Virus record (IMG/VR): IMGVR_UViG_3300031413_000569 | Source: a virus | DNA length: 30,154 nucleotides | Reading direction: 5' to 3' (one strand) | In this document: piece after piece, positions 9,023 to 24,517 of the stretch | How the letters are laid out: each line of letters opens with the position of its first letter | Numbering within the stretch: position 1 is the first letter of the stretch | Notes under the pieces: model-generated | Seen by the model: only the letters and a program-made list of their open reading frames with translations | Database searches by the model: none | Told to the model about the DNA's origin: nothing | Made by a program: the position numbers and the translations under genes

Positions 9023-9664
9023 TTAGTACCAGTTACTTGCCTGTGAGTGACCCCAGGCTCCACAAGGTGTACCGTATCTGTCTGAGATGTAACCAAGACC
9101 CCACTTGATTTGGGTACCAGCGTTGGTTTGCCAGTCAGCACCTGCTGAAGCCATCTTACTACCAGGCAAAGACTGTGGAATACCGTACGCACCAGATGAA
9201 GGATTGTTAGCGTTTACTCTCCAGCCAGATTCTTTGTTCCATAAGGAGACAAGGCAGTTGAATTCACTCTGACCCCAACCGTGAGCCTGTACTTGATTCC
9301 AAGCCTCTTCTTGAGCGGAACCTGGGTTAGGAGTCACTGCTGGGGCAGAAGGTGTAGAAGGAGTAGCAGGTGACTTGACCGAGGTTTTACTCTTTACTGG
9401 AGTCTCTACAACAACTGGTTCTGGTGGTGGAGGCGGAGGAGGTGCTGTGATGCTATAGCTTTCACGTTCTATCGCAGGTGCTTTTACACTGTCAGACACA
9501 GTGAAAGACTGCGAACCAGTAGTGTCAGCAGAAGCAGAGTAGATTACGTCTTCTATATTTTGATCTGCGAGATTATTGTCAATTGGGATGGCTGAGGTTC
9601 CAGTGACTGCAAGGTTGAGAGCCAATGCAGTAGACCAGAAAGCCGAGGCTAAATTTACAAACAT
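9023..9664 (-). CDS. Secreted lytic transglycosylase (actinobacterial SLT-type)
   Basis: Hydrophobic signal, Pro-rich linker, then KESGW..NANNPSSGAYGIPQSLP...NAGTQIKWGLGYISDRYGTPCGAW. Start taken at ATG 9664 because the longer ORF start lies inside a hairpin. Confidence 0.9.
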   Translation of the reverse strand: MFVNLASAFWSTALALNLAVTGTSAIPIDNNLADQNIEDVIYSASADTTGSQSFTVSDSVKAPAIERESYSITAPPPPPPPEPVVVETPVKSKTSVKSPATPSTPSAPAVTPNPGSAQEEAWNQVQAHGWGQSEFNCLVSLWNKESGWRVNANNPSSGAYGIPQSLPGSKMASAGADWQTNAGTQIKWGLGYISDRYGTPCGAWGHSQASNWY

Positions 9665-9672
9665 ATGAATTG

Positions 9673-9680
9673 TTATCGGC
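9673..9680 (-). promoter_or_regulatory. Sigma-28-type -10 element GCCGATAA
   Basis: Exact match to the FliA/WhiG -10 consensus, 8 nt upstream of ATG 9664. No TAAA -35 is seen. Confidence 0.55.
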
Positions 9681-9722
9681 CCTGATATTGAACCGAGTCT
9701 GGAATCTGATATTTTTAACTGA

Positions 9723-9756
9723 GAATGCCCTCTGAACTCAAGTTCAGAGGGCATTC
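9723..9756. terminator. 16-bp perfect hairpin, probable terminator
   Basis: GAATGCCCTCTGAACT-ca-AGTTCAGAGGGCATTC downstream of the 9779 stop. Confidence 0.7.
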
Positions 9757-9778
9757 CACAAAGGAAGTTTTGTGTTAG

Positions 9779-9970
9779 TTAGGCTCTTAGGTCACCAATT
9801 GCCTGGCGGAACACCTGCACAATTCCACTGCAGATTGCATAGAACCAATCCCATAACATGCCGATGAAACCAGCAATATTGCCTGAACGTCCCCATACCT
9901 CCCAAATAAACAGGACCACTACGCCAATACCGATAGCCATAAGGATCGTCTTGAGGGCTTTTTTAATCAT
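9779..9970 (-). CDS. Small membrane protein (63 aa)
   Basis: Basic N-terminus, a TM helix and a second hydrophobic helix; TAATG coupling to the upstream gene. Confidence 0.75.
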   Translation of the reverse strand: MIKKALKTILMAIGIGVVVLFIWEVWGRSGNIAGFIGMLWDWFYAICSGIVQVFRQAIGDLRA

Positions 9971-10188
9971 TAGGATTCTTCCTTTGTTTCAACAATTGAT
10001 ACATTATCTCTATCAACTGTTTTTGCAATTTGACGTGTTCTGTCCGCCCAAATCAATCCAGTCCACCATCTTTCTAAAGTGCTTTCACCAGAAAGCTCCC
10101 AAGGGTCTGGAAACCAACCAGCTGGAGCTGAAAGGTAGGCAGGCATCTGATGTTGCTTGCGTTGAGAAAAAGAAGTGTCAGTCATCAT
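9970..10188 (-). CDS. DUF2510 domain protein
   Basis: APAGWFPDPW......ERWWTGLIWADRTR matches the DUF2510 PAGWYPDP...RWWDG..WT pattern. Confidence 0.8.
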   Translation of the reverse strand: MMTDTSFSQRKQHQMPAYLSAPAGWFPDPWELSGESTLERWWTGLIWADRTRQIAKTVDRDNVSIVETKEES

Positions 10189-10192
10189 TTAG

Positions 10193-11071
10193 TTATCCGC
10201 AAGTAGCAAGCATGTCTTTCAATGCTTGAACATCTGCTGCTGAAGCTGACAAGTTATAATTCTTGCTAATAACAATCCAGTCTGTAGCGTATGTGCAGTA
10301 GTTGGCAGTATTAGTTGGTTTCCACTCAGCTGGTCCTTTGTCGCTCTTAGAGCGATTCTCTCCTGCTTTCACAGCTTTCAGATGATTTGGGTTGGTCAAA
10401 TCATTTGCAAACTGTTCTTTTTTGCTTTCATCCCAAGCCTGTCCACCATGTTGAGCAGCGTAGGACAAAGGAATCATGTGGTCAATATCCAGCTCTTTAG
10501 GGTTTGTGATGGTTGTACCAGAATAAGGGTCATTCCACGTTCCTGATTTTACAGAGCAAGCTTTGCCCACTTCTGCTACTGTTTTACCTGATTTGTCAGC
10601 AAGAACCAAAGTGGCATCTTTTACCGCTTCTTCATAAAGAACTTGGTCTCTTGTGTCCCAACAGCTTGAACCCTGTGAAATCCAGTGGTTCCACTCATCC
10701 CTGTCATAGGAAACTTTTTGAGGGTCAGCTACTGTCAAAGAGCTCAATGTGTTGGTTGCTTCTGAAGGAGCTGGTTCTGTACCTGTTCCTGGAGTGCCTG
10801 GATTGGTTCCAGGAACCCCAGGAGTGCCCGTACCTGGTTGGACATTGGAAGATAATGTGCAACGGCTAAAATCACCTTTGATAGCATTTGGTGCACAGTT
10901 CTTCATCCATGCTTCCACAGTTAAGGATTTTGACTTCAACATTGACGGGATATCGTTCAAGTTGGGATCACTTGGAATGCCAAAGAACCCAATAATGCAC
11001 GCACCAATTACAAAGAAGGTAACAATGCTACCTAATTTTCCTCCACTGGACTTTCTTGAACGACTTGCCAT
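10193..11071 (-). CDS. Membrane-anchored extracytoplasmic HNH nuclease (DUF1524-like)
   Basis: N-terminal TM, GTPG linker, YDRDEW.HW, W.DPYSG, DIDHMIPL, NRSKSDKGPAEWKP, C.YA..W. Confidence 0.88.
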   Translation of the reverse strand: MASRSRKSSGGKLGSIVTFFVIGACIIGFFGIPSDPNLNDIPSMLKSKSLTVEAWMKNCAPNAIKGDFSRCTLSSNVQPGTGTPGVPGTNPGTPGTGTEPAPSEATNTLSSLTVADPQKVSYDRDEWNHWISQGSSCWDTRDQVLYEEAVKDATLVLADKSGKTVAEVGKACSVKSGTWNDPYSGTTITNPKELDIDHMIPLSYAAQHGGQAWDESKKEQFANDLTNPNHLKAVKAGENRSKSDKGPAEWKPTNTANYCTYATDWIVISKNYNLSASAADVQALKDMLATCG

Positions 11072-11122
11072 TTCTATTTACTCACTTTTTCTAAGATAAA
11101 CAACTTCCTAATACCTATCTGT

Positions 11123-13483
11123 TTAGGAACCAAAGGGGCTACCCTGTTTTGGGAAGTTTGTTTCTTTTTTCCCATCCTGATTTTGAAAAGGAGAAACAAC
11201 AGGCTTGTTTGTAGCAGCCCCTGCTGGCTTAGCAGGGAAAGCAAACGGACTAACAGGTCTGACTGGTCGTACAGGGGCTTCCTGGGCGGTTTCAGCAGGT
11301 TCTGGCTCAGCTACTGGTGCTGGCTTTGCTACAGGCTTAGAAACGGTTTTAGCGGGTACAGGTTTTGAATCGAATGGTGAAGCAGACTCCCAAAGAAGAG
11401 CCGGCGGAGCAGCTTCAACTGGCTCTTCCGCAACAGGAAGAGGAGGGACTTCCTCTTGAATTTCTTCATCCAGGTCGTCCATGTCATCAAAATCATCCAG
11501 AATGAAGTCTTCTGGCTTCAAATCTAAATCAGGTTCGATAGTCTGTTTGTTTACCGGAGTGCGAACTGGTTCTTCATTGTCATTAGGTAGCCCGTTGAAA
11601 AAAGCAGGTACAGTTCTGTCATCAACATCCACGACAGTATCTTCTGGTCGTTTACTCAAAGCATCAATAAGGCTCTGATGGTTTGCGTCAACCTCTGCAA
11701 CTGGTGCTTGATTCATAAAGTCAGGTTCTGGGTAAGAACGGGGCGCTTCATCTATTTCAGCTTTAGCGATAGAAGGAGTAGATGTTACGACTTCAGGAGC
11801 AATTTCTTGTTCTTGTTCTGATGATTCTTCTTTCAGAGGCTTCTTTCCCAAGCGAGCTTTGCGTGGCTTTTTGTCAGCTTTTGGAGCTTTCTTGGCAGAG
11901 GTTTCCAGAGTCTCAGCAGCTTCTTCTACCTCTGAAGTTTTAGCAGCCAGTTTTTCTTGGTATCTTTCGTAAAGATGTCCACCGGGAGCTACACAAGTAG
12001 GCTCAACGTGTGGGTTTTCAAGAATGAATTCATCAATCCAAGTAGGAGGTGCAAAGTAACCTTGGAAAGTCTCCAAACTTCCACCAACACGAAGAAGACC
12101 TCGACCACGGATACCTGGAAGGTTCACCGCTTCTCCAGAGTCCAAAATCATGGTAGAAGGGGTAGAGTCCATACGACCAGCAGCTAAACGAACATCCATG
12201 TTGGCCTTGAATTCGCCTCGTAGCACTACGGCGTCAGGACGCTGCATAGCTACAACCATATGAATACCGGCAGCACGACCCAATCGGAGAATCTTACCTA
12301 CAAGGTCAGAGGCTTCGGCTTTCATCATGTCCTCAGCTTTACCTTCATCAGTTTTAGAACCAGAAGCGCCAAGGAACATTGTTGCCTCATCGACCATAAG
12401 AAGAATACAGTAAGGAGGGTCTTCCAAATCCATAAGGTTGTTCTGCCCTTTTTCTTCCATCATCTTGTAACGGTCCATCATAGCGTTATACGCATATTTC
12501 AGAACTTCAAGACCTTGGTCTACTTCAGTAGCAATACCCATGACAGTCTGCTTGTACTTGTTGTACGGGGTAAGCTCCACACGTTTGAGGTCGACTCCTA
12601 AGAACCTCCAACGGTCGTTGTGTTGGATTGTGTGGAACACAATGTTTCTCTGCAACACTGATTTACCTGTACCGGAAGGTCCACCTACGAGAACGTGAGG
12701 GAAGGTTTTTAAGTCGAAGGAAACAATACCGCTTTTAGCCAAACCTACAGGGAATTCACTCCAAGAGTATTTAGAAGAGCCTGGGTACTTGAGCTCTGTA
12801 GGCAGTTTGTCTACAGCTTCAATTGTTACTTTGTCATGTGTCAAATCCCAGACAGGGTTCCAATCGTGCTCATCAGTAACGTTTTCTGTGAACGTCTTAT
12901 CAAAAGCGTTTTGAGCATTTTTGTCAGGTCCTTGACCAGCAGGGAAAGTAATGACCATTTTCTTGGGGTCTTCATCCGAAATCCATTCTTCAACAGTAAT
13001 GAAGTTCCAGAAAGCAGGATGTGAGGCGTTCTTTCCCCGAGGGCCTGAAGAGAACTTGATAGTGTTTGAAGCAATAGCAAAGATACGGCCAAGAATCTTG
13101 TCACGTTTCTTCATTACAGGTAAGGCACGACTTATTCCGAAGATGAAACTAATGGGGAACACGATGAGAAACAAGAAGTTACCAGTAAAGATGTAGGCAA
13201 GGCTTCCAGCGGTCAATCCCAGGATGTGGAGGCTTTTCAAAGAAAGAAGTTTTTGAGCTAAAGGTGAACCTTTTTTGGCTAAAGTTGCTTTGTCTTCTTT
13301 GAAAACATAACTGTTCACTTCGCTGGCAATTTTTCCAAACGGCTTGACCAATTTACCTTTGGCTAAACGGGCTGGAACATATTTCGAGTTCCACAGCCAG
13401 CTGATAACACCAAAGACTATTGGTAGTCCTACAAGCAGAATACTTGCAAGAATAATAATACGGGGAAGGAGTTCGCTAATCAT
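11123..13483 (-). CDS. FtsK/SpoIIIE-family ATPase (TraB/TcpA-like DNA translocase or coupling protein)
   Basis: N-terminal TMs; PHVLVGGPSGTGKS (Walker A), DLKRVE, LMVDEA (Walker B), RLGRAAGIH...QRPD; long acidic/Pro-rich tail. Confidence 0.92.
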   Translation of the reverse strand: MISELLPRIIILASILLVGLPIVFGVISWLWNSKYVPARLAKGKLVKPFGKIASEVNSYVFKEDKATLAKKGSPLAQKLLSLKSLHILGLTAGSLAYIFTGNFLFLIVFPISFIFGISRALPVMKKRDKILGRIFAIASNTIKFSSGPRGKNASHPAFWNFITVEEWISDEDPKKMVITFPAGQGPDKNAQNAFDKTFTENVTDEHDWNPVWDLTHDKVTIEAVDKLPTELKYPGSSKYSWSEFPVGLAKSGIVSFDLKTFPHVLVGGPSGTGKSVLQRNIVFHTIQHNDRWRFLGVDLKRVELTPYNKYKQTVMGIATEVDQGLEVLKYAYNAMMDRYKMMEEKGQNNLMDLEDPPYCILLMVDEATMFLGASGSKTDEGKAEDMMKAEASDLVGKILRLGRAAGIHMVVAMQRPDAVVLRGEFKANMDVRLAAGRMDSTPSTMILDSGEAVNLPGIRGRGLLRVGGSLETFQGYFAPPTWIDEFILENPHVEPTCVAPGGHLYERYQEKLAAKTSEVEEAAETLETSAKKAPKADKKPRKARLGKKPLKEESSEQEQEIAPEVVTSTPSIAKAEIDEAPRSYPEPDFMNQAPVAEVDANHQSLIDALSKRPEDTVVDVDDRTVPAFFNGLPNDNEEPVRTPVNKQTIEPDLDLKPEDFILDDFDDMDDLDEEIQEEVPPLPVAEEPVEAAPPALLWESASPFDSKPVPAKTVSKPVAKPAPVAEPEPAETAQEAPVRPVRPVSPFAFPAKPAGAATNKPVVSPFQNQDGKKETNFPKQGSPFGS

Positions 13484-13646: not shown

Positions 13647-14120
13647 TCAGAAAGGTGCGTCAACATCTTCAGCTGCAGGAGCTGGTGCTGAGTAGGATGA
13701 GCCGCCACCGTTTACACGAGGAGCGCTTGTTCCGCCACTTACCTTGTTGCCGTAAGCAGACTTATCTGTTACGTTCAAAATCTGGTGGTCCAGGCTGACT
13801 GTAACGTCATCTGCTACAATTTCGAGGCTCTGACGAGCTTCGCCGTCTTTGGTCTTGTAGGCAGAAACTTTAAGCTCACCGATAACGGTAACTTCCAAGC
13901 CCTGGTCAAGAGAAGCTACAGCATTCTCAGCAAGACGCTTGAACAATGTTACGTCATACCAGGTCAGTTCACCATCTTCCCACTGATTGGTCTGAGGGTT
14001 CAAGCGGCGTGGTTGACGAGCCAAGCTGAATGATGTTACAGCTACTCCAGAAGGAGTGTAACGCAGTTCAGGCTTACGTCCGATACGACCAGATACAAAA
14101 TGTTTGTTGAATGATGTCAT
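13647..14120 (-). CDS. ssb: Single-stranded DNA-binding protein
   Basis: GRIGRKPELRYTPSGVAV, TWY.V..F..LAEN..SL..G..V.V.G.L; acidic tail EDVDAPF. Confidence 0.95.
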   Translation of the reverse strand: MTSFNKHFVSGRIGRKPELRYTPSGVAVTSFSLARQPRRLNPQTNQWEDGELTWYDVTLFKRLAENAVASLDQGLEVTVIGELKVSAYKTKDGEARQSLEIVADDVTVSLDHQILNVTDKSAYGNKVSGGTSAPRVNGGGSSYSAPAPAAEDVDAPF

Positions 14121-14214
14121 GATTTTCTTCGTTTTCTGTGATTGTTTGTTTTGTTTCAGGCGTATAAGGTTAAGTTTATTACGCTTGTTACTTCTATTCT
14201 AACGTTTTTAGATA

Positions 14215-14727
14215 CTATATCTCAGATTTAGCATCTAAAACATAATTATTTGCGACAAGGAAGGGAACTTCCCCTGCTACGTCATAAGCTGATTTCTCAT
14301 GGTTGCGTGTTCCTGCACCTTTTGCGAAACCAGGTAAATCTTTAGGTCGCCTTCCGCACAAAACATCAGGATATCCTGTACGGCTTGTACCATTGTGACC
14401 TGGTGGAACGATTACAGCATTACTAAATCTTTGAGCTACCGCTCCAAGAACAATTCCTGCAAAAATAAGGTATTTAGGGTTAAGGGGGGCTAACTTACCA
14501 TTGTTGTAGCCCCTGGGAGCCGCTAACCCTTCTATGCCTATCTTTGCCTCTGGGAAAAGGTCAGCTACATCTGTCTGAATACGGGCACTGACTTCTATTG
14601 CCCAGCTTACAATTTCTGTTTCTTTCGGCTTCACATAAGTTGAAGACAAAAGAATCTCGTCAGTGCTAATGTTCCTTACGGAGACCCCGGTGTATTTAGC
14701 ACCGGGGTCTATTCCTATAACTATCAT
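14215..14727 (-). CDS. RuvC-like Holliday junction resolvase (RNase H fold), divergent
   Basis: VIGIDPG..YTG, IGIEG, IVPP, and NHEKSA where DxxDA is usual. Confidence 0.75.
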   Translation of the reverse strand: MIVIGIDPGAKYTGVSVRNISTDEILLSSTYVKPKETEIVSWAIEVSARIQTDVADLFPEAKIGIEGLAAPRGYNNGKLAPLNPKYLIFAGIVLGAVAQRFSNAVIVPPGHNGTSRTGYPDVLCGRRPKDLPGFAKGAGTRNHEKSAYDVAGEVPFLVANNYVLDAKSEI

Positions 14728-14735
14728 GCTATATA

Positions 14736-16292
14736 TTATAGGCTTGAAAGAACTGCTTTGAAGTTAGCTTTTCCGCTTGCCACATAGAAGTCCAAGAAAT
14801 CTCCCAATTTGTCATCAGGGATGTTCGATGCCTTGCTGTAGGACTTTCCAAAAGTGTGAGACAAAAGCTTCGCTACCTGAGCCTGCTCAGCTTTTGTCTG
14901 CAAGCCTACCTCTTCAATAATGAAGCTTCTGAACTCATCCAGCAAATCCTCTGTAGGAGCGTTAGAAGAGTTGATAGCTCCTGGCTGAAGAAGGTCCTGT
15001 GGGAACCATTCGGTACCGTCAGAGACGACTACAGAGCTTTCAGGGGCTGTTTCTGGAGCAGCTGCAGCCTCTTCTGCCTCATATGCGGGTTCTGGTTCCA
15101 CCTCAGGCTCACTGTAGCTTGGCTCAGGAACAGAAGAAGGAGCAACAGACTCTGTGTTGTCAATGACTACAGGAGCAGCAGAAACAATGCCAGAGTTTAC
15201 TTCTGTTGAAGCTTCAGACTTGTCCAAGCTTTCAAGCAAGCTTCCTACCGTGACCTGCTGCATGGAAGCTTTGATTCCAGAAAGCAGGTTATGACGAGCA
15301 GCTTTTCCAACAACCTGAACGAACTGGTTCACGGCTTCTTTATCACCAGGTGTTCCACTGGAGGAAAGAGGAATATCTACTCCGCTGTCGATGATGGTGA
15401 ATACAGAAGAACGAGCTCTTGTGTGAGAACCGGCAGAGCGGTCAACACGGAAACCTGTTCCGTAAGCACCAACCTGAATACGGTCAGCAATAGCAAGCAC
15501 AAGGAGAGTGAAAAACTCTACTGTGTCAGCATTTGGCTCAGCTTTGGACTGCTTCTGAATCTTTTCATAAACATAGTTGTATGTGTTGATACCAGAAGCT
15601 ACGGTAGCATTACCGAGGTTTGTTCTACCGTCACTGTTGTAGTCCTTGAAAGGAGGTGCTTCCTTGCTGAAAGCACTCTGAACAGCAGTAGGCTGCTCTC
15701 CAGGAATGGTTGCTGCTTCAGCAACTTCAATAGGAGTCGCACCAGCGATAAGAGCTTGAGCTTTTACTGCATCAATAACTGCCTCAGAAACTTCACGAGA
15801 AGTAGCTAAAGTGCGAAGAGTTGCAAGAACAGCTGATTTGTCAACTGTAGCCCCTCCAGTTGAACCTGCTCCTTCTGTGCGAGGACGAGGACTTGTCAAA
15901 GCGGATGTTGCCTGGCCTGTTGCAGGGTCATCTGCAGGGTTTGTGAGAGCTTCACCAGTGAATGAGCCGTTTACTGCTACAAGCTTTTTAATAATGTTCT
16001 TGTTGGCGTTTTCCTTGCGAAGCTCATTGATAGGAGTTTCGCGTGAGATACCTTTTTTACGCTGAGATTCAATGCGAACCTCAATTTCTGTTCCGTCTTC
16101 GTAAGCTTTACGAATTACTTCCAGAATAGCTTCATCTTTGTTCAACCAACCACTGATGGGCCAGTCTAAATATGTTGCTTCAATTGTTGCATTAACAGCG
16201 TTAGCTTTTTCTTCTAACTTGGTAACTTTACCTTTTGCTGTTGCTACGTATACCTCGGTACCATCGCCATCGTGTGAAACAAAAACGCTCAT
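14736..16292 (-). CDS. Hypothetical protein (518 aa) in the recombination cluster
   Basis: Long ORF with RBS AAGGAAA and its own -10; no recognised family. Confidence 0.85.
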   Translation of the reverse strand: MSVFVSHDGDGTEVYVATAKGKVTKLEEKANAVNATIEATYLDWPISGWLNKDEAILEVIRKAYEDGTEIEVRIESQRKKGISRETPINELRKENANKNIIKKLVAVNGSFTGEALTNPADDPATGQATSALTSPRPRTEGAGSTGGATVDKSAVLATLRTLATSREVSEAVIDAVKAQALIAGATPIEVAEAATIPGEQPTAVQSAFSKEAPPFKDYNSDGRTNLGNATVASGINTYNYVYEKIQKQSKAEPNADTVEFFTLLVLAIADRIQVGAYGTGFRVDRSAGSHTRARSSVFTIIDSGVDIPLSSSGTPGDKEAVNQFVQVVGKAARHNLLSGIKASMQQVTVGSLLESLDKSEASTEVNSGIVSAAPVVIDNTESVAPSSVPEPSYSEPEVEPEPAYEAEEAAAAPETAPESSVVVSDGTEWFPQDLLQPGAINSSNAPTEDLLDEFRSFIIEEVGLQTKAEQAQVAKLLSHTFGKSYSKASNIPDDKLGDFLDFYVASGKANFKAVLSSL

Positions 16293-16344
16293 GATTTTCC
16301 TTTACTGTGTCTGTGTGTTTCTACTTCTATTCTATCAGGCACAG

Positions 16345-16887: not shown

Positions 16888-16890
16888 AGC

Positions 16891-18747
16891 TTAGACATCA
16901 GCTAACTTTTTGAAAGTACGGGTAAACACGCCTTTAGGGTTCTTCAAAGTACCTTCAAACGCCTGAAAGTCCCAAAGAATTCTTAGAGCTTCGAACATTT
17001 CGTAAATCTCTTCAGAAGAGTCAACTTCCTGGAAAGTGTATGCATCAGGAGAAAGATGAAGCACAGCAGTAAGGTCAGTCTGAGGAGGAGACACCAAAGT
17101 TTTGCTATCAGGTGAAATGAACTCAACGTTCTTGTTAGCTGCCAACTGGAAAGCCACAGGAGCGTGGGCACCTGTACGGTTTGTGTTGTGAGTAAGCACA
17201 CCACCAGTAACATGGTTGTGGGTATTCTCTACTTCGATAGCTACAGTGTGGACAGGTTCAGCGTTTTCACGAACGCGAATTACTTTGACTTCTTCAAGAC
17301 CATAAATGTGGACCTGCTCGCCTGACTGGATAGGCAAACGCAGGACAGGATGACCAGTTTTGGGGTTCATTCCAATTTTAGTAACCTGACCGTTGTTGAA
17401 GTAAAGCTGCTGCAAAGACTGCAAGCTGGCAATTTCACGATGTTCAACAAAGAAGAAGTCTTCATTTACAGCTTTGTTAGCAAACACTTCCTGGACACCA
17501 GACATGAATGCTGTCTGGAAAATCAGAGGAGAAGAGAAAACAAAGTCAGGAATGACAGGGTTGTTGATAAGTTCCAACAGCTCTTCAATGCTGAGCTTAG
17601 CTTTATTAGCAACACGACGAAGACCTGTTTTTACCCTGATACGGTCGTCGGCAGATTTCAAGAAACCAAACGAAGCAAGCTCGTCAAGAAGTTCTGCACG
17701 AGAGGTGCCAGGGAAGCTCACTTTACCTGAATCAGTCCAGTCTACATCATTGTAGTGAGCCAAAGCCCAGAGGAGTCCGAACAGGTAAGGAGAAAGGTGT
17801 TTGTTGAAGGGCCATTCGGTCTCAGACTTGTAAGGTGAGTGGGACCATCCTGAAACAATGTACACATGGTCATCACGGGAAAGTTTCTCGCTCTCTAACC
17901 AAACCATGCCCTCTGCAGCCCGCTTCAGGAACTTGTGGTTACCAGTTACTGTAATGGACTGACCAAGTTCTGTCACCACAGTGTAAGTAGGCTGGAAGCC
18001 ATTGGAGCCGGCGTAAGAAACTCGGTCTACCTGTAAGCCATCTTTTTCTGACCAAGAGACAACTTCATCGCCTACCTTGATATCTTTTGCTTGCTTCTGT
18101 GAACCGTCTTTCATCAAGACAAGTGTGTCATCAGTCGTGCATTTGTAATCGCCCAAAATATTTACTCCGTTCACAGTGGCGTGGAAGTCCGCTGTGCCAG
18201 CGAACCCTAAATCTTTGTTTCTTGTCTTACCAAAACCAGTAATCTCTGTATAGTTGAAGGTCGGCTGGAAGTCATCCAACCAACGCCTGAACTGCTCAAC
18301 GCATCCCTTTTCATACTCTGTAAGAGGCATATGAGTGATGGTTTGACCGAGCGAGATAAGTTCACAAGCATTATGAACGTTAGTTCCCTGAGTGCCCCAG
18401 AAAGTCATGTGCTTATAGGGGATATCTTTGAGATATTTGAAAGCAGCTTCTTCTCGTTCGATGACGGCACGAGTGTGCTGCACTGCCATTTTGACAGCTT
18501 CTTTGGCTGTCATTTTCGCAGCCCAGTCAGTAAGGAAGGGATTGTTCTTGACATCAATCACATTAGTAATTGACGGAACAAGATCGCCTGACTGAATAAG
18601 TCCCTTGTAGACTGGAAGAGACTGGTAGTTCTCTGGTAGAATGAAGTCAGGTCGACGGTAAAGTCGTCCTACTTTATCCCAGCGCTCTCTGTAGGGAGGA
18701 ACCACTCTTACAGAGAGCTGAGGATTTGAATCTAATAGTTCGGTCAT
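16891..18747 (-). CDS. PD-(D/E)xK (RecB/Cas4-like) exonuclease interrupted by an intein
   Basis: PSITNVI, GTNVH, E, FAGTAD...GDYK|TNRTG...FQLAA after removing the intein (about 299-aa extein). Confidence 0.85.
   Translation of the reverse strand: MTELLDSNPQLSVRVVPPYRERWDKVGRLYRRPDFILPENYQSLPVYKGLIQSGDLVPSITNVIDVKNNPFLTDWAAKMTAKEAVKMAVQHTRAVIEREEAAFKYLKDIPYKHMTFWGTQGTNVHNACELISLGQTITHMPLTEYEKGCVEQFRRWLDDFQPTFNYTEITGFGKTRNKDLGFAGTADFHATVNGVNILGDYKCTTDDTLVLMKDGSQKQAKDIKVGDEVVSWSEKDGLQVDRVSYAGSNGFQPTYTVVTELGQSITVTGNHKFLKRAAEGMVWLESEKLSRDDHVYIVSGWSHSPYKSETEWPFNKHLSPYLFGLLWALAHYNDVDWTDSGKVSFPGTSRAELLDELASFGFLKSADDRIRVKTGLRRVANKAKLSIEELLELINNPVIPDFVFSSPLIFQTAFMSGVQEVFANKAVNEDFFFVEHREIASLQSLQQLYFNNGQVTKIGMNPKTGHPVLRLPIQSGEQVHIYGLEEVKVIRVRENAEPVHTVAIEVENTHNHVTGGVLTHNTNRTGAHAPVAFQLAANKNVEFISPDSKTLVSPPQTDLTAVLHLSPDAYTFQEVDSSEEIYEMFEALRILWDFQAFEGTLKNPKGVFTRTFKKLADV
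17185..18141 (-). mobile_element. Intein (319 aa) with degenerate LAGLIDADG-type homing endonuclease region
   Basis: Starts CTTDDTLVLMKDG...KDIKVGDEV, block B TVTGNHKFL, ends AIEVENTHNHVTGGVLTHN followed by +1 Thr. Confidence 0.92.
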
Positions 18748-18845: not shown

Positions 18846-19100
18846 TTATGAATAGAAAGAGAAGAGCGTAGCTGCTCCAACAGCAATGATACCAAGGACT
18901 GCAATGGTTCCCACAACAGGAATAGCAGTTTTAATCAATCGAGCAATGATTGATTTTGTAGTTGGGCGACTATTGGCTTGAGGAACATAATTAGAGGCTA
19001 ACCACGGAATCTCAGGCATGTCTGAGATTTTATCAGGTACAGGACGCTTTGGGCGGTCAGGAATACGGGTTTGAATATCTGTCTCAATGTCACCAAACAT
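18846..19100 (-). CDS. Small protein with C-terminal TM helix
   Basis: Hydrophobic C-terminus; last gene of a tightly packed operon. Confidence 0.7.
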   Translation of the reverse strand: MFGDIETDIQTRIPDRPKRPVPDKISDMPEIPWLASNYVPQANSRPTTKSIIARLIKTAIPVVGTIAVLGIIAVGAATLFSFYS

Positions 19101-19104
19101 AGGG

Positions 19105-19575
19105 TCAGTTCCTTTCCTGAATGAAAGTCTTCAATGAAGACAACTTATAACTATCAGCATCGCTTGCTAACAGTAATCTTTCTAATGCTTTACTACTACC
19201 TAACATTATCGGAGTAGTCAAACTGTTTAGTATCGCTACATGTAAGTCTTCATCCACATCAAGATATTCTTCGATAGTTTCTTGTAGGTTAGAAGACAAC
19301 AAAAAGCTCGAAGGGAAAGCATTGTTCAAGCTCACCTCATATACAGAACCGTATTTGCGGAGAGTGAAATTGACTTGATCCTTTTCTACTGCATACATAG
19401 GTGGAGCTACATCATTGATGCATAGATTCACATTGGGTACATATGATAAGAATTGTTCATCTTGAACTGAGTAGAACCACATGCCATTAGTGGCAATTTC
19501 TTCAGCCTCAGCATGATGACGAGGAAACATCTGTCTCATGACGTTTACCGAAACGACAGGAAATTTGGAGGTCAA
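19105..19575 (-). CDS. Hypothetical protein (156 aa)
   Basis: TTG start overlapping the upstream stop; fills the operon. Confidence 0.7.
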   Translation of the reverse strand: MTSKFPVVSVNVMRQMFPRHHAEAEEIATNGMWFYSVQDEQFLSYVPNVNLCINDVAPPMYAVEKDQVNFTLRKYGSVYEVSLNNAFPSSFLLSSNLQETIEEYLDVDEDLHVAILNSLTTPIMLGSSKALERLLLASDADSYKLSSLKTFIQERN

Positions 19576-19859
19576 TAGAGTATCTCTTTCAATTCTTGAT
19601 TTAAAGGTATTTTGCTAAGAAACTCATACTCGCCAGTAGAGAGTTTCAACGGAATGGCTCCATCAGCTTTCCCTAAACTTACTGCAATTCTTTCATATGC
19701 TGGATAAAGAACTTCGGCACGGCTTTCTGCTACTCCACATTCGATGAGGATGTTCTCAATATGAGGGTTGACTTCAGCCAAGTTAAAACGAAACTCATGG
19801 AGAGCTTCCCAAATGCCTTTAAGTTCTTGCTCAGACACCCATAATGTTTTCAAATCCAT
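19572..19859 (-). CDS. Hypothetical protein (95 aa)
   Basis: ATG 2 nt after the upstream stop; fills the operon. Confidence 0.7.
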   Translation of the reverse strand: MDLKTLWVSEQELKGIWEALHEFRFNLAEVNPHIENILIECGVAESRAEVLYPAYERIAVSLGKADGAIPLKLSTGEYEFLSKIPLNQELKEILY

Positions 19860-19861
19860 TA

Positions 19862-20518
19862 TCAGTTACCAGCTTTCACATTCTGAACTTCTCCAAAAAT
19901 GCTTTCACCTTTGATGAGGAAATAACTACCAGGCTGGCATTCACCACTCATGCATTTGACCAAGTACTCATCTTGAAGCTTGCGTGAGGAAACATCCTGA
20001 GGCTGACCAGATTCATCAACCAGCGTACCTTCATAGGATTGTGAACTTGAACCAGAGATTGAAATCTGGCCATTAGCTGCAGAGATAGTATCAACAGGTC
20101 CACTACTGATTTCACCTACGACAGGATTAGGAACACCCATGAAGGCATATTTCAATCTGTTTAGAGGGTCATCTTCAGATGCCTCAGTTCGTGAACCTAA
20201 AATTTTATCAGTTAAAGCTGGTTCTCCACCTAAGAATGTCCCACGTGCGACGAAGACCGGTTTGCCTTCCACGAAAGTGGTAAAGAATAGAGACACAGCT
20301 AAGGTAGTGTACAGCACAGCGAAGATAAGAACAGCAGACACTAAGAATAACGCACCGCTCTTGAGCCACCCTGCAAAAATCTTGAACCATGACTCTTCAG
20401 AGAACATTACAATATCTGAATTAGAATCGTAAGCCAAAGCTGGTTTGGCATCTGAGGTGTCAACAGCTAAACCGTGTTGCCTCAGACTGGGTTTGTAGTC
20501 TTGTATACGATGAACCAT
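19862..20518 (-). CDS. Membrane-anchored protein (218 aa)
   Basis: One long hydrophobic segment, then a beta-rich domain with CxxxxC. Confidence 0.8.
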   Translation of the reverse strand: MVHRIQDYKPSLRQHGLAVDTSDAKPALAYDSNSDIVMFSEESWFKIFAGWLKSGALFLVSAVLIFAVLYTTLAVSLFFTTFVEGKPVFVARGTFLGGEPALTDKILGSRTEASEDDPLNRLKYAFMGVPNPVVGEISSGPVDTISAANGQISISGSSSQSYEGTLVDESGQPQDVSSRKLQDEYLVKCMSGECQPGSYFLIKGESIFGEVQNVKAGN

Positions 20519-20521
20519 GGC

Positions 20522-21778
20522 TTACAGGTCCTCTGGGCGAATCTGAGGCAATGGACGACCTGTTGCTGATTCTGGAACAGCTTCAGCCTGTGGACGACCT
20601 TCAATCTGTGCTACATAGTTTTCAAGGTCTTTGATGTAAGCATCCTGCTGAGCTACTGCTGAGCTAAGTGTTTTCACTTCTGCTCTGAGTTTCAAGTCGC
20701 CTTCGTTAGTGAGTTCATCAATTTCATCAAGGGGCTTGGAGTCCTCTGGTAAGGAATTCAGAATACGCTGTTCGGCTTCCTGAACAGCTTCTGCAACAGC
20801 AGCTGTCAGTTCTTCCTCAGTGTAACCAGTATGAGCTGCCTCTGCCTCTGTACGAGCTTTTTGTTCAGCTGCTGCAACTGCGGACGCCGTGGCAGCTTCA
20901 ACCGCTGCAACCGCTTTATTTTTCTCAGCTGTTTTAGTAGCTTCTACTTCTGCAACTGCAGCATTTTTCTCAGCTGTTTTAGCTGCTTCTACTGCTGCAA
21001 CCGCAGCTGCTTTTTCTGCTTCTTTAGCGGCTTCAGCTTCCGCTACAGCAGTTGCAATAAATTCTTCGACTTCTTCATGAGTGTAAGTGTCGTCAGAGAC
21101 AGCTGGAGCTACTGGGATGTTTGATACTGCTTCAGCAATGAGAGCATCAGCTTGCTCTTGTGTGTAGACGCCTGCGTTCTGAGACGCATCAGCTAAAATC
21201 TTTTCTACTTCTTCAGAAGTGTAGTAACCTCGGCTTGCAATTTCTGCTTCTTTAGCTGCTTCAGCTTCCGCTACAGCAGTTGCAATGAAACCTTCAACCT
21301 CTTCACGAGAGTAGTATTCTCCTTCAGGCGACTGTACCGGTGCTGAGGCCACAGTAGCTTGGTCCCTCTGGGCAGCTTTTAGTTCTTCTTCGAGCTGATG
21401 AATGCGACCGATGAGTACATCAGTTTCGTCATCTTTTTCAACTTCATCTACGGCAAGACCAATAGCCTCGTTGTACTGCTTGTTATCAAGCTGGGCTTGA
21501 AGGTTCATCACGTTCACTTCAAGTGTGTCAATGACCTCACCCAACTTGTGCACAGCTAAGTCTCTTTGGTGGAGAACATCTGCGTAATAGTCTAAGGTTG
21601 GCTGTACTCGTTCAAAGATAAATGATTCAATATCTCCAAATGCGTAGCCCTGTGGTCGAGAAACGCGGAAACGAACACTTCGGGCTTGCCCGGAAGTCAT
21701 TATCTCTTCAGGGGGCGTAGTCTGCACTGGGATACCAAGACGCTCTAAAGCCCCTTGCTGCTGCTCGTAATTGCTCAT
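20522..21778 (-). CDS. DivIVA-domain coiled-coil protein with internal repeats
   Basis: MTSGQARSVRFRVSRPQGY...IESFI...V matches the DivIVA N-terminal pattern, followed by a long Ala/Glu coiled coil. Confidence 0.75.
   Translation of the reverse strand: MSNYEQQQGALERLGIPVQTTPPEEIMTSGQARSVRFRVSRPQGYAFGDIESFIFERVQPTLDYYADVLHQRDLAVHKLGEVIDTLEVNVMNLQAQLDNKQYNEAIGLAVDEVEKDDETDVLIGRIHQLEEELKAAQRDQATVASAPVQSPEGEYYSREEVEGFIATAVAEAEAAKEAEIASRGYYTSEEVEKILADASQNAGVYTQEQADALIAEAVSNIPVAPAVSDDTYTHEEVEEFIATAVAEAEAAKEAEKAAAVAAVEAAKTAEKNAAVAEVEATKTAEKNKAVAAVEAATASAVAAAEQKARTEAEAAHTGYTEEELTAAVAEAVQEAEQRILNSLPEDSKPLDEIDELTNEGDLKLRAEVKTLSSAVAQQDAYIKDLENYVAQIEGRPQAEAVPESATGRPLPQIRPEDL
21013..21286. repeat. 46-bp direct repeat (1 mismatch) inside the DivIVA-like gene
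   Basis: 21013-21058 vs 21241-21286, both encoding IATAVAEAEAAKEAE. Confidence 0.9.
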
Positions 21779-21946
21779 ATCCTGTCTTTCTTGGCTAATA
21801 AACTCTATGATTCTCTATCGTCTCAGAACAAAGGAATAAGCATTGTCGATTCTTTGTTGAATTAGATGACTGCAAAATAACGTTTTTGCGGTACATACCC
21901 CTAAAAATGAACTAAACGCAAGGATTGAGTTAACATAGACACACCT

Positions 21947-22267
21947 ATGAACAACGATAACAGCTTTATTCCTATTTATATTAAGCTCTTCGAACGCAGC
22001 AGCAAGTCGTTAGAGCAACTTCTCCGTGATGTTGAGTCACTTTCAAAAGAGTGCTCTTTAGAGAGTGACGTTGAATTGTCCCAAATCTCTCGCAGCGAGA
22101 AGAACTCGTCCATGTACATGGCGGTATTTTGTGTGAACACAAAACCGGCACGACAGCGACACTCTAACTCTGTTGGTGTTTTCTTAGATAAGGTGTTTAG
22201 CCAGCTTGCTGACAAACATCCTGCTTTTGCCGAACCCTTGAACCCTGACCTTGAAAGCGTGAAATGA
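21947..22267 (+). CDS. Hypothetical protein (106 aa), coupled to the sigma factor gene
   Basis: ATGA overlap with 22264. Confidence 0.7.
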   Translation: MNNDNSFIPIYIKLFERSSKSLEQLLRDVESLSKECSLESDVELSQISRSEKNSSMYMAVFCVNTKPARQRHSNSVGVFLDKVFSQLADKHPAFAEPLNPDLESVK

Positions 22268-23565
22268 ACGTTGCACAATACACCGAGCTTGATACGCTCC
22301 TGTTAGACAAACTTGCTGATGGGCAGTGGCATCCAAGCACAAAAATTTGGAGTCGTTTCGGTGACGAAGCTAAACTTCTTGATCCTAAAGTCTCCAAAAA
22401 ACAAATGCTAACAATGTTAGATGAATTGGTAGAAAAAGAGATTCTTCTTAGCGGAGCCAACCAGTCTTACCGCTTTGTTACTCGTGAACTTGAGTTGTGG
22501 AGACTTCTTTCCCCAACTCTTGACTTGACCAGCCTAAAAGACACTCCTCGCTACTTTGGAGGAATCTTAGAGGATGACGGATGGCAACGAGCTCCTCTAA
22601 GAGAGTGTCATTTGGTTCATTTCAAAGCCTCTCGTAAGCTTTCAAAAACAGAGTTATCTAAATTGGTGTCAGAGCCAATGAATATGATTAACTTGAACGA
22701 GGATGGATTATATAAAATCTATTCTCGTGATAAAGAAACCACATACAACCGCGTCAAAGAACTGAAGGTTGAGTTCCCCGAATACGAAATTAGTGGTATC
22801 AGATTAGAAGCCAACTTACGTCGACGCAGTTTAGACGAACTGCACCAGCGCTACCTGTCAGAGTTATGCAGACATTATGGCCAGTTTGCTAAAGTTCTCC
22901 TTCGTGGACAGATGTCTTCAATCAAAAAGCATCTTCCTGAAGATGATGACGCTCAGCAGCAGATTTATCTCTGGGTGATAGAAGCTGTCAAACGTTATGA
23001 TGATTCCACTTCTATTCCTTTTGCTGCTTATCTTGGAACCAGTATCAAAAAATGGGTTTACGACTTGAATCGCAAATCCTATGGCCGTTCCATCGCAGAC
23101 AAAGAATTGAAGCACTCCCGAGCTATCAACGAATTCCGTGCAATTGAAGAGCGTAACCCTACTGCTGAAGAACTTGCTCGAATTCTCAACATTCCAGTTG
23201 ATGAAGTAAACAGAGAAAAAGAAGACATCAACACTGTTGTAAATCTACGAAACCAAAAAGCTATTGAATACGATGACTTTGAGTTACCTCTTCCTGCTGA
23301 AGACCAAACAGATGCACATCTCGACAACTTGATTGAATCGACTATCCTGTCAGCTTCCATTACGACAGCATCTAAGTTGCCTAATGGTAAACGTAACATT
23401 GCTGGCTTGGTTGCTATCTATTACAAAACATGGGGTGTGGATGTTGAGAACAAGCGTATTCGATCTTGGATGCGCAGCAAAAGCACTGTGCAAGCTCTGG
23501 ATGACATCACCAGCCGAGCTGAGCAAATCATTGTAGACACAAGAAGAGAAGAGCATATCAGCTGA
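22264..23565 (+). CDS. Divergent sigma-70-family factor with about 200-aa N-terminal extension
   Basis: Region 2 DDAQQQIYLWVIEAVKRYDDSTSIPFAAYL; region 3 ERNPTAEELARILNIPVDEV. A region 4 HTH is not recognisable. Confidence 0.8.
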   Translation: MNVAQYTELDTLLLDKLADGQWHPSTKIWSRFGDEAKLLDPKVSKKQMLTMLDELVEKEILLSGANQSYRFVTRELELWRLLSPTLDLTSLKDTPRYFGGILEDDGWQRAPLRECHLVHFKASRKLSKTELSKLVSEPMNMINLNEDGLYKIYSRDKETTYNRVKELKVEFPEYEISGIRLEANLRRRSLDELHQRYLSELCRHYGQFAKVLLRGQMSSIKKHLPEDDDAQQQIYLWVIEAVKRYDDSTSIPFAAYLGTSIKKWVYDLNRKSYGRSIADKELKHSRAINEFRAIEERNPTAEELARILNIPVDEVNREKEDINTVVNLRNQKAIEYDDFELPLPAEDQTDAHLDNLIESTILSASITTASKLPNGKRNIAGLVAIYYKTWGVDVENKRIRSWMRSKSTVQALDDITSRAEQIIVDTRREEHIS

Positions 23566-24251
23566 TGTTAGGTTACGTTAACTCTTTGTTAGCGATCCTT
23601 GTTACTACCATCGGACTCTCGTTGTATACTGTGAAGGACCTTGTTCCTTCATGGAACACACGAGAGTTCGGTGTTTTACAAGGCGCATGGAACAAAATGC
23701 TTATCTGGTCTTCTGTGGTAAGTATCGGAGTGAGTTTGTCTGTCTATCATGGCACGCAGGATAGCTTCATTGCATTATTGATCGGAACTCTTACTTACTT
23801 TGTATCTTTCGCGGCTCAAACAGACATCAACTTGCATCTTGTACCGAAAGAGTTCAGCTCTTTAGCTATCATTGTAGGAGCCTTGTTCGGCGGGGTTGGT
23901 CTCATCTTCTCTGAGACTAAAACGATCATGTTTTCGCTTTTTCAGTCTCCTTTGGAGATAGCGTTGACCAGCTTAGGACTTTATACTGCAGTCATCTGTT
24001 TGATCTTTATCGCTTTGGTGTTTGGAGCTAAGGGAGTCGGTTTTGCTGATATCAAAATGTTTTGGGCTACAGGTTTCTTTGTTAGCTGGTATGCCGGCTA
24101 TATCAATATGATTGCTTTGTTCATGTTGGTGAACATTCTTCTATTTGTCCATCTCATCTATTTTAGGTTAAACAAAAGCAGGGAGAACATTCCTGTTCTC
24201 CCTGCTTTTTCCGCAGCAGTTATACTTGGTAGTATTTTACTGTTGGGGTAA
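23565..24251 (+). CDS. Prepilin peptidase (A24, TadV/CpaA-like)
   Basis: Multi-TM protein with two Asp motifs, AAQTDINLHLVP and GVGFADIK, and C-terminal IPVLPA. Confidence 0.8.
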   Translation: MLGYVNSLLAILVTTIGLSLYTVKDLVPSWNTREFGVLQGAWNKMLIWSSVVSIGVSLSVYHGTQDSFIALLIGTLTYFVSFAAQTDINLHLVPKEFSSLAIIVGALFGGVGLIFSETKTIMFSLFQSPLEIALTSLGLYTAVICLIFIALVFGAKGVGFADIKMFWATGFFVSWYAGYINMIALFMLVNILLFVHLIYFRLNKSRENIPVLPAFSAAVILGSILLLG

Positions 24252-24253
24252 GG

Positions 24254-24517
24254 TTACTTACTGTACTGTGAGCAACCTGTGGTGGTGTTTACACCAGAGA
24301 TACACTTGCTGAGCTTGGTACCCTGTGATTTCATGGCGTTTGTAATCATTGTACCTACGACAACACAGATGATTACGAAGATACCGATGATGATAACGGT
24401 CTGAACAACGTCAGCACGCTCTGAGCTTTCGCCCTTTGCAACTGCACGTGCACGACGCATTGAGTCAGCTGCAAACATCTGTGTCTTCACAGAGGCGTTT
24501 AACATTAAGTCTTTCAT
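24254..24517 (-). CDS. Flp/type IV-like pilin precursor (atypical cleavage site)
   Basis: Basic leader, ESSERA|DVVQT, hydrophobic helix and a C-terminal Cys pair. It is convergent with the A24 peptidase. Start ATG 24517 follows AAGGAAA. Confidence 0.6.
   Translation of the reverse strand: MKDLMLNASVKTQMFAADSMRRARAVAKGESSERADVVQTVIIIGIFVIICVVVGTMITNAMKSQGTKLSKCISGVNTTTGCSQYSK

What the first reader, a model, noticed from the sequence alone, without database searches (positions are those of the whole stretch)
9023..24517. Candidate undescribed DNA-transfer machine: FtsK translocase + surface nuclease + muramidase, with pilin, prepilin peptidase and DivIVA
Seen: co-oriented FtsK/SpoIIIE ATPase, TM-anchored HNH nuclease, DUF2510, small TM protein and SLT (9023-13483). 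Also a DivIVA-led operon of membrane and unknown proteins (18846-21778) and a sigma-peptidase operon facing an Flp-like pilin (21947-24517). No relaxase, VirB4 or TadA is in this window. Known: Streptomyces TraB-type FtsK proteins move dsDNA without a relaxase, SLTs open peptidoglycan, DivIVA marks actinobacterial poles, and membrane nucleases act in DNA uptake. Inference: a pole-localised, pilus-assisted conjugation or DNA-uptake system of a giant element, linked by the shared CCGATA/GATAG promoters.
Basis: partly seen in the sequence, partly recalled or inferred. Interest (0 to 1): 0.85.

Follow-up and report, generated by a model that had tools for sequence, protein, structure and literature searches.

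The report
Giant plasmid's sigma-28-driven surface module
These genes are a real, conserved block of an undescribed family of 0.6-1.0 Mb DNA elements, likely conjugative plasmids of plant-associated actinobacteria; the pilin, cell-wall and pole genes are likely mating accessories switched on by the element's own sigma factor, while the DNA probably crosses through an ordinary Gram-positive type IV secretion system seen in a distant relative, not through a new FtsK machine.

Summary
The genes are there and travel together. FtsK, sigma, DivIVA-like, prepilin peptidase and pilin keep their neighbourhood in metagenome loci down to about 43% sigma identity, some on 0.7-0.9 Mb contigs. DivIVA, peptidase and pilin labels are weak in the window but hold through relatives. 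The 218-aa gene folds like a signal peptidase without a conserved Ser-Lys pair (SipA-like). The CCGATA box is real, resembles the sigma-28 -10 element and precedes the pilin in 13 of 13 loci, but it also precedes metabolic genes, so it marks a broad regulon rather than one machine. Against a stand-alone FtsK machine: the most distant relative carries a standard Gram-positive T4SS with its own VirD4, TcpE, TcpF/VirB4 and MobC-like relaxase under the same box, and there the nuclease and muramidase lie far from ftsK. Sequenced Rhodococcus and Dietzia plasmids join the same FtsK-SSB-SbcCD core to that T4SS. This FtsK lacks a gamma or TraB-type DNA-reading tail. No pilus motor and no virion gene was seen, but only about 9% of this lineage's element could be read. 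Verdict: a new variant of a known kind; the separate role of FtsK stays open.

The parts
9023..9664 (-). Secreted lytic-transglycosylase-type muramidase (likely start Met31 at 9664, signal-like N-terminus, Glu175 in KESGW); longest ORF starts at 9754
   Evidence: NF052397 127 bits; PHROG 12661 E 1e-37; CCGATA at 9679 lies 9 nt before this ATG; start codon inferred
9779..9970 (-). 63-aa hydrophobic protein, function unknown
   Evidence: sequence; no family hit; conservation not tested
9970..10188 (-). DUF2510 protein, 72 aa
   Evidence: PF10708 E 2e-7
10193..11071 (-). Membrane-anchored HNH-type (GmrSD_C/DUF1524) nuclease, predicted to face outward
   Evidence: PF07510 E 1e-9; invariant D195, D197, H198, N223, N239 and four Cys in 32 rows; shares 28 of 120 contig lengths with FtsK homologues, chance mean 0.33
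11123..13483 (-). Membrane-anchored FtsK/SpoIIIE-family ATPase without gamma or wHTH tail
   Evidence: PF01580; Walker A G268-S275 and Walker B D365-E366 invariant in 50 rows; residues 501-786 unconserved and P/E/A-rich, tree sister to FtsKs of three actinobacterial plasmids
13647..18747 (-). Intervening recombination/repair block: SSB, RuvC-like ORF, conserved 518-aa ORF, RecX, intein-bearing exonuclease
   Evidence: SSB and the 518-aa ORF stay near ftsK in family loci and in Rhodococcus and Dietzia plasmids
18846..19859 (-). Three conserved unknown ORFs (84 aa with C-terminal membrane helix, 156 aa, 95 aa)
   Evidence: conserved in family loci; no useful family hit
19862..20518 (-). Membrane protein with signal-peptidase-I-like fold and no conserved Ser-Lys pair (SipA-like)
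   Evidence: AF2 model pLDDT 80; top VIA match SipA 4N31 Z 8.4, rmsd 3.1, 108 aligned, next LepB 1T7D Z 7.4; column check
20522..21778 (-). DivIVA-like coiled-coil protein
   Evidence: homologue L192:11086-11928 hits PF05103 E 2e-5; family profile hits Wag31 6LFA at E 0.1 over the N-terminal motif
21947..22267 (+). 106-aa unknown protein overlapping the sigma start codon
   Evidence: 15 blastp hits in family loci, all directly before sigma
22264..23565 (+). Divergent sigma-28 (FliA/WhiG)-like factor with a 200-aa N-terminal extension; region 4 not matched
   Evidence: TIGR02479 E 2e-10, below cut-off; family profile hits only FliA structures, E 5e-8, FliA residues 24-190
23565..24251 (+). A24 prepilin peptidase
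   Evidence: D87 and D162 (GxxD motif) invariant in 11 rows; homologues over Pfam cut-off
24254..24517 (-). Flp-like prepilin, 87 aa, with two conserved Cys
   Evidence: ExG|DIVQT motif and hydrophobic helix in 13 rows; Atlas lead Flp1_like at 0.85; covered by contigs in 5 of 6 RNA runs
24561..24566 (-). CCGATA box before the pilin, predicted -10 element
   Evidence: present before the pilin in 13 of 13 loci and in G002

Best explanation
The stretch is part of the conserved backbone of a family of 0.6-1.0 Mb elements that are likely conjugative plasmids of actinobacteria, and its pilin, peptidase, SipA-like, DivIVA-like, muramidase and nuclease genes are likely envelope accessories for mating, predicted to be switched on by the element's own sigma-28-like factor, with the DNA probably passing through a standard Gram-positive T4SS encoded elsewhere. 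Steps. (1) Shown: co-occurrence and gene order. (2) Shown: a conserved CCGATA box before pilin, divIVA, ftsK and, in the distant relative, the T4SS genes; inferred: it is the -10 element read by the element's sigma, which itself has no such box upstream. (3) Inferred: the A24 peptidase cuts the prepilin, which is polymerised by a Tad-type motor encoded on the unseen part or borrowed from the host, and gives cell contact. (4) Inferred: DivIVA gathers the apparatus at poles or septa, the muramidase opens the wall, and the outward nuclease clears or excludes external DNA. (5) Shown only in relatives: VirD4, TcpF/VirB4, TcpE, VirB6-like and MobC-like genes; inferred: they carry one DNA strand across. 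(6) Inferred: FtsK is a backbone translocase that clears the large replicon from the closing septum, in line with its fixed place beside SSB, resolvase and SbcCD genes even in plasmids that have their own VirD4 and lack the sigma and pilin.
For: Synteny in 22 metagenome loci: FtsK in all 13 that reach far enough, DivIVA-like in 20, pilin in 16. G002 contigs C1, C2, C9 group by tetranucleotide profile (r about 0.95 against 0.30-0.36 to the bin's own C4) and by CCGATA use (C9 11 of 27 ORFs, C1 40 of 99, C2 21 of 53; 0 or 1 in each of 17 other contigs). C2 holds FtsK, sigma, A24, DivIVA, SipA-like and pilin homologues. C9 holds TcpE E 1e-19, AAA_10 E 3e-63, TcpF model E 6e-67, TraD/VirD4 model E 2e-22, Replic_Relax E 3e-6; PF13814 is MobC in PMC5357655 (passages). 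Plasmids W02 and W03 carry both the core and homologues of C9's VirB4 and VirD4 on one circle. Family FtsK is sister to their FtsKs (98/94) and apart from the C. perfringens clade and chromosomal FtsK. Sigma-28 -10 is GCCGATAA and WhiG drives type IV pilus genes in Rubrobacter (PMC8325347, passages). No -35 consensus in 126 sites, fitting the unmatched region 4.
Against: The T4SS was seen only in the most distant member (sigma 33%, FtsK 39%) and is tied to its core by composition and motif, not by one contig. About 70 kb of a roughly 790-kb element was read for the window's own lineage. ftsK sits behind a CCGATA-type box with envelope genes (exact in 4 of 8 loci), which suits a transfer role as well as segregation. 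The FtsK profile scores better on the coupling protein structures 6O1W/X/Z (E 1e-42) than on FtsK 2IUS (E 3e-35). W01-W03 show no Replic_Relax hit and are typed non-mobilizable, so their relaxase is unknown. The branch to the plasmid FtsKs is long (2.08). No TadA or TadB/C could be assigned to the element. No promoter, localisation or transfer experiment exists.
Confidence: 0.5

Rival explanations
1. The FtsK is the transfer motor (TraB-like for double-stranded DNA, or a TcpA-like coupling protein), working with the nuclease, muramidase, pilin and DivIVA at the cell pole.
For: ftsK and the nuclease stay adjacent across the family (10 shared contigs under 12 kb); CCGATA-type box before ftsK; best PDB match is a coupling protein; FtsK-type ATPases serve transfer in MPF_FA systems (PMC3548315, passages), in pELF plasmids (PMC13492992, abstract) and are proposed to in C. 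acnes plasmids (PMC5696575, passages).
Against: TraB model NF041214 scores only E 0.028; no conserved C-terminal domain and no 8-mer array near ftsK; relatives have their own VirD4, whereas all 47 TcpA regions in PMC3548315 lacked VirD4; in G002 nuclease and muramidase are on another contig than ftsK.
Confidence: 0.2
2. The element is a megaphage; CCGATA marks late promoters and these genes remodel the host envelope or segregate the prophage.
For: G001 is filed in IMG/VR as a provirus; thyA, DHFR, RNA ligase, inteins and SbcCD are common in large phages; one earlier AI note found CCGATA before virion genes of another element (unchecked).
Against: No capsid, portal or terminase protein among 39 further G001 ORFs or the G002 element ORFs scanned; the few virion-class PHROG hits are single shared domains (SLT, fn3, P-loop, nudix). 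Four IMG/VR scans returned no full-length family member. Core genes match plasmids, and a T4SS is present in the relative.
Confidence: 0.12
3. The genes serve maintenance and adhesion only: FtsK and DivIVA position and segregate the replicon, and the pilus sticks the host to leaf surfaces, with no part in DNA transfer.
For: The box marks a broad regulon that includes NAPRTase and a second sigma; W01-W03 carry the core, and VirB4, without the sigma or pilin; pilin contigs appear in 5 of 6 leaf-litter RNA runs.
Against: Shared control with the T4SS operon in G002 suits a joint mating programme.
Confidence: 0.12
4. The module is a DNA-uptake system: Flp pilus binds DNA, the surface nuclease cuts it, FtsK pumps it in.
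For: A tad locus was required for transformation in one actinobacterium (cited in PMC5696575, passage); outward nuclease plus RecA, RecX and SSB genes in the family.
Against: No ComEA or ComEC family hit among the ORFs scanned, on partial sequence; a donor-type T4SS is present in the relative.
Confidence: 0.06

Closest known systems
MPF_FA Gram-positive T4SS with VirD4 and MobC-type relaxase (pCW3 Tcp-like genes; unnamed plasmids NZ_CP133327.1 of Rhodococcus and NZ_CP027239.1 of Dietzia)
   Same: FtsK-SSB-518aa-SbcCD core shared; T4SS operon of the distant family member has homologous VirB4 and VirD4 in the same order.
   Different: Those plasmids are 0.2-0.4 Mb and have no match to the sigma or pilin profiles and no TadA or TadB/C; identity is only 24-37%.
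Cutibacterium acnes linear plasmids with tad locus, FtsK, VirB4 and TcpC (PMC5696575, passages)
   Same: Actinobacterial plasmid joining Flp pilins, an FtsK-domain protein and T4SS genes.
   Different: There the full tad locus is present; here only pilin and peptidase were seen, with an own sigma, DivIVA and SipA-like protein, on a far larger element.
Streptomyces TraB and pCW3 TcpA translocases
   Same: N-terminal membrane anchor plus FtsK ATPase; best PDB match 6O1W/X/Z (named coupling protein; that it is TcpA is recalled).
   Different: No TraB-type C-terminal DNA-binding domain or 8-mer array; forms its own clade apart from the C. perfringens proteins; relatives keep a VirD4.
WhiG/FliA sigma-28 regulons (Rubrobacter pilus genes, PMC8325347, passages)
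   Same: GCCGATA-type -10 box before pilin genes, sigma with FliA-like regions 2-3.
   Different: Encoded on a mobile element, 433 aa with N-terminal extension, no -35 consensus, regulon includes transfer and metabolic genes.
SipA of Streptococcus pyogenes (PMC4049620, listing and start of abstract)
   Same: Membrane-anchored signal-peptidase fold tied to a pilus system.
   Different: SipA serves sortase pili; here the pilin is class III; Z 8.4 is only just above the background range.

Membership tests
FtsK/SpoIIIE ATPase superfamily | RecA-like motor with Walker A, Walker B and N-terminal membrane anchor | tested here: met
   PF01580 over cut-off; invariant motifs; hydrophobic N-terminal stretches
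Chromosomal FtsK | C-terminal gamma domain reading KOPS | tested here: not met
   no gamma Pfam hit; tail conservation 0.10-0.25 against 0.51-0.72 in the motor
Streptomyces TraB | Score on the TraB model and C-terminal winged-helix domain | tested here: not met
   NF041214 12.9 bits against cut-off 800; unconserved low-complexity tail
Streptomyces TraB | Array of 8-bp TRS repeats beside the gene | tested here: not met
   no 8-mer more than 2-3 times in 0.8 kb upstream and 2.7 kb downstream; rest of the element not available
TcpA coupling proteins | Lies in an MPF_FA operon that lacks VirD4 | tested here: inconclusive
   not met in G002, W02, W03, which have VirD4 apart from ftsK; the window lineage's transfer region was not available
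MPF_FA conjugative plasmid | VirB4/TcpF, TcpE, VirB6, coupling protein and relaxase on the same replicon | tested here: inconclusive
   present on G002:C9, linked to the core by composition and motif only; not testable for the window's own element
A24 prepilin peptidase | Two catalytic Asp in membrane segments, second in GxGD-like motif | tested here: met
   D87 and D162 invariant in 11 rows; 3 of 5 homologues over Pfam cut-off
Flp/Tad pilin | Class III signal: Gly at -1, hydrophobic helix, Glu at +5 | tested here: inconclusive
   ExG and helix conserved, but Gln (Glu in one row) at +4, and Ala at -1 in the window; ERG|MEAAQ with Gln at +5 in G002
Tad pilus system | TadA ATPase and TadB/TadC platform | tested here: inconclusive
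   none in window, G001 or W01-W03; G002 hits lie on contigs not assignable to the element; elements incomplete
DivIVA/Wag31 | N-terminal membrane-binding motif followed by coiled coil | tested here: inconclusive
   motif aligned to Wag31 at E 0.1; best homologue 24.9 bits against cut-off 28; polar localisation not testable
Sigma-28 (FliA/WhiG) | Regions 2-4 and TAAA-N15-GCCGATAA promoters | tested here: inconclusive
   regions 2-3 and the -10 core met; region 4 unmatched and no -35 consensus
Signal peptidase I (active S26) | Conserved Ser-Lys catalytic pair | tested here: not met
   no Lys column conserved in the folded domain, Gly/Asn/Pro and Thr/Ala after the invariant Arg92
Tailed phage | Capsid, portal, terminase genes | tested here: inconclusive
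   none in the parts read; most of the element unread

The most novel reading that the evidence does not exclude
Near-megabase actinobacterial plasmids run a private sigma-28 programme that builds a pole-anchored mating station (plasmid DivIVA, SipA-like chaperone, Flp pilus on a borrowed host motor) in which this FtsK clade pumps double-stranded DNA alongside or instead of the T4SS: a second transfer route for very large replicons.
Probability: 0.17. Interest if true: 0.85.

Novelty: new variant of a known kind. Interest (0 to 1): 0.55.

Why it matters
The family is large (more than 100 clusters at 90% identity for each of three marker proteins), reaches about 1 Mb, occurs in leaf and straw metagenomes, and has no close isolate record in the plasmid or phage collections searched. 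How replicons of this size move and segregate in actinobacteria is open. A plasmid-borne sigma-28 regulon with its own DivIVA and prepilin processing gives concrete, testable parts, and smaller cultured Rhodococcus and Streptomyces plasmids with the same FtsK core allow the transfer-versus-segregation question to be tested.

Tried and rejected
No whole genome is held for the window, so the full contig could not be searched for Tad, T4SS or virion genes. IMG/VR scans with FtsK, sigma and the C9 VirB4 gave no family member. The genome collection gave one family contig among the 80 loci kept. Sigma had no match in plasmids; FtsK and SbcC matched phages only distantly. The A24 and nuclease profiles found no meaningful PDB sequence match; the pilin profile only weak ones. 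The 518-aa protein was modelled (pLDDT 74, N-terminal beta-barrel plus helical domains) but its fold search could not be run, and the Atlas gave only unnamed clusters under 0.8; its function stays unassigned. The Tad genes on G002:C157 could not be assigned to the element (correlation 0.66 against 0.64); the PilB/PilC genes on C4 belong to the bin's other DNA. The closest VirB4 homologues (54-63%) often carry inteins at the same Walker A site as family FtsKs, but such inteins are widespread, so I do not count this as a link. RNA contigs did not cover ftsK or divIVA in 4 of 4 runs laid there; contigs cannot show absence or rank genes. RNA contigs end at 24540 in 4 runs and 24521 in one, where DNA contigs go on: a weak hint of a start near the box, no more. 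Literature searches found no description of this family; the rice long-read paper's megaplasmid is rhizobial (PMC10973392, passages); supplements were not read and subscription papers are not held. No complex prediction was sent.


Full report
Observation. The window is 44% G+C and gene-dense. The FtsK, HNH-type nuclease, DUF2510 and transglycosylase labels pass family models directly. DivIVA and pilin have no hit and the peptidase is below cut-off, so I tested them through relatives. The three gene groups are separated by a repair block (SSB, RuvC-like by recalled motif, a 518-aa unknown, RecX, intein exonuclease) and a strong hairpin lies between ssb and ftsK, so they are separate transcription units.

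The family. Sigma, FtsK and nuclease each have well over 100 homologous clusters (159, 1187 including distant FtsKs, and 265). Among the 120 best of each, 8 or 9 have a longest contig above 500 kb, up to 1.0 Mb; a protein identical to the window's sigma lies on a 789-kb contig. In 22 metagenome loci centred on sigma, ftsK is within 10 kb in all 13 that extend far enough, the DivIVA-like gene in 20 and the pilin in 16, the misses being mostly short contigs; order is kept down to 42-47% sigma identity and is rearranged but still clustered in L098 and L099. FtsK and nuclease homologues share 28 of 120 contig lengths (jittered control mean 0.33, maximum 4), 10 of them under 12 kb, so the two genes are neighbours across the family. 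Fourteen DNA runs hold half or more of the stretch's words, all from phyllosphere, plant or straw metagenomes, two possibly its source. The host is inferred to be actinobacterial from DUF2510, a WhiB gene in a relative, and the closest plasmid VirB4 matches in Nocardiopsis and Nonomuraea (43-45%).

The parts. The peptidase has both aspartates invariant in 11 rows and 3 of 5 homologues pass PF01478. The pilin has a class III-like signal, one hydrophobic helix and two cysteines in 13 rows, with Gln one position early relative to the usual Glu+5; the most distant copy reads ERG|MEAAQ. The DivIVA label rests on a sub-cut-off Pfam hit in a homologue (E 2e-5) and a weak alignment to Wag31 (E 0.1). 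The 218-aa protein gave a confident model whose best structural matches are SipA (Z 8.4, rmsd 3.1, 108 residues) and signal peptidase I (Z 7.4); no Ser-Lys pair is conserved. This is a new link between the DivIVA operon and surface-protein assembly, though Z near 8 is modest. The sigma matches FliA regions 2-3 only. FtsK has intact Walker motifs, a 286-residue unconserved tail, no gamma or TraB-type domain, and no nearby 8-mer array.

The promoter box. CCGATA is the top-enriched upstream hexamer in G001 (10 seen, 0.78 expected) and in the G002 element contigs (56 seen, 1.5 expected). With three near-duplicate loci dropped, it precedes the pilin in 13 of 13 loci, divIVA in 11 of 16 (CGATAG variant in 4 more), the 324-aa gene in 12 of 14 and ftsK in 4 of 8 (variants in the rest); the sigma operon has it in the sense direction in 0 of 13, and the exonuclease has a TTGACA-type promoter instead. 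It equals the core of the sigma-28 -10 element GCCGATAA, and WhiG-type factors direct pilus genes in Rubrobacter (PMC8325347, passages). No -35 consensus shows in 126 sites. It also precedes NAPRTase, a second sigma and an HTH gene, so it defines a broad element programme, not a single machine. Pilin sequence is covered by contigs in 5 of 6 leaf-litter RNA runs that were found with a different stretch; contigs do not prove transcription or level.

What kind of element. G001, a 69-kb IMG/VR record 95% identical to the window, adds DnaE, RecG, a ter cluster and a surface protein, and no virion gene among 39 ORFs. The FtsK, SSB, 518-aa and SbcCD genes have homologues together on circular plasmids of Streptomyces anulatus, Rhodococcus and Dietzia, and in a 43-row tree the family FtsKs are sister to these three (98/94, long branch), apart from chromosomal FtsK and from the C. 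perfringens proteins. One genome bin (G002, labelled Polynucleobacter) holds a distant family member. Of 20 contigs sampled, C1, C2 and C9 group by composition and by CCGATA use. C2 has ftsK, sigma, peptidase, DivIVA, SipA-like gene and pilin; C1 has the nuclease and muramidase far from ftsK, plus DnaE, primase, gyrase, a second A24 peptidase and pilin-like fn3 proteins; C9 has a Gram-positive T4SS operon with VirD4, TcpE, TcpF/VirB4, a VirB6-like membrane protein and a Replic_Relax protein, with CCGATA before several of its genes. PF13814 is the MobC relaxase family and pairs with VirD4 (PMC5357655, passages). The Rhodococcus and Dietzia plasmids carry homologues of that VirB4 and VirD4 on the same circle as the core, lack matches to the sigma and pilin profiles, and show no Replic_Relax hit.

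Mechanism. I read the window's genes as the envelope arm of a sigma-driven mating programme on a giant conjugative plasmid: pilin processed by its own peptidase for contact, DivIVA as polar scaffold, muramidase to open the wall, outward nuclease to clear or exclude DNA, and a T4SS elsewhere as the channel. FtsK is more likely a backbone translocase for segregation, because it stays with SSB, resolvase and SbcCD in plasmids that have their own VirD4, and TcpA-type coupling systems lacked VirD4 in all 47 regions examined in PMC3548315 (passages). Against this, ftsK shares the box and an operon with envelope genes, its profile is closer to the coupling-protein structures than to FtsK, and FtsK-type proteins act in transfer of pELF plasmids (PMC13492992, abstract). 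The pilus motor is missing from everything read, so it is either on the unread 90% or borrowed from the host. All functional steps are inferred.

Comparison and novelty. Each component has a known counterpart, and C. acnes plasmids already join Flp pili, FtsK and VirB4 (PMC5696575, passages). What differs is the size, the private sigma-28-like regulon with a -10-only box, the plasmid-borne DivIVA and SipA-like proteins, and an FtsK clade that fails the TraB and chromosomal FtsK tests. Four searches of the held library showed no description of the family. Earlier AI notes describe similar second promoter classes on giant plasmid-like elements and one phage with a CCGATA box; they are leads only. 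Verdict: observation confirmed, interpretation partly supported, new variant of a known kind, interest 0.55.

Noticed in passing
window 24375-24540, run X17 record 23: An RNA-run contig matches the pilin's first half exactly and then continues with a different second half, suggesting pilin alleles with a shared N-terminus or an assembly join.
   Followed up: no
window 14736-16292: Conserved 518-aa three-domain protein of no known family, between exonuclease and resolvase genes and shared with Rhodococcus, Dietzia and Streptomyces plasmids; a candidate strand-annealing or DNA-binding partner. Covered by contigs in 4 of 4 RNA runs laid there.
   Followed up: partly
window 21947-22267: 106-aa ORF overlapping the sigma start and kept before it in the family; possible co-factor or anti-sigma.
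   Followed up: no
window 24690-25664: 324-aa acidic protein whose N-terminal domain (tested with the G002 homologue) matches small ORFs on 39 plasmid records, 36 of them Streptomyces and many near record ends.
   Followed up: partly
P0122, P0143-P0145, P0361-P0365: Many family FtsKs and the closest VirB4 homologues carry inteins inserted right after Walker A (GK|ALA..).
   Followed up: partly
L092:18101-20473, L095:17072-20326, L191:13397-14716, L229:7735-9525: Large proteins with a type IV pilin N-terminal motif, several with fibronectin-III domains, near this block in relatives; possible pilus-tip adhesins.
   Followed up: partly
L189:8458-17885: A full ter stress-response cluster (four TerD copies across G001, TelA, StiP, C-C lyase) on the near-identical record G001.
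   Followed up: no
window 25726-26037 and 16345-16887: The element encodes an IF3 C-terminal-domain protein and RecX.
   Followed up: no
G002 contigs C1, C2, C9: About 170 kb of this element family is binned into a genome labelled Polynucleobacter; the bin also holds phage-like and actinobacterial Tad contigs, so it is contaminated.
   Followed up: yes
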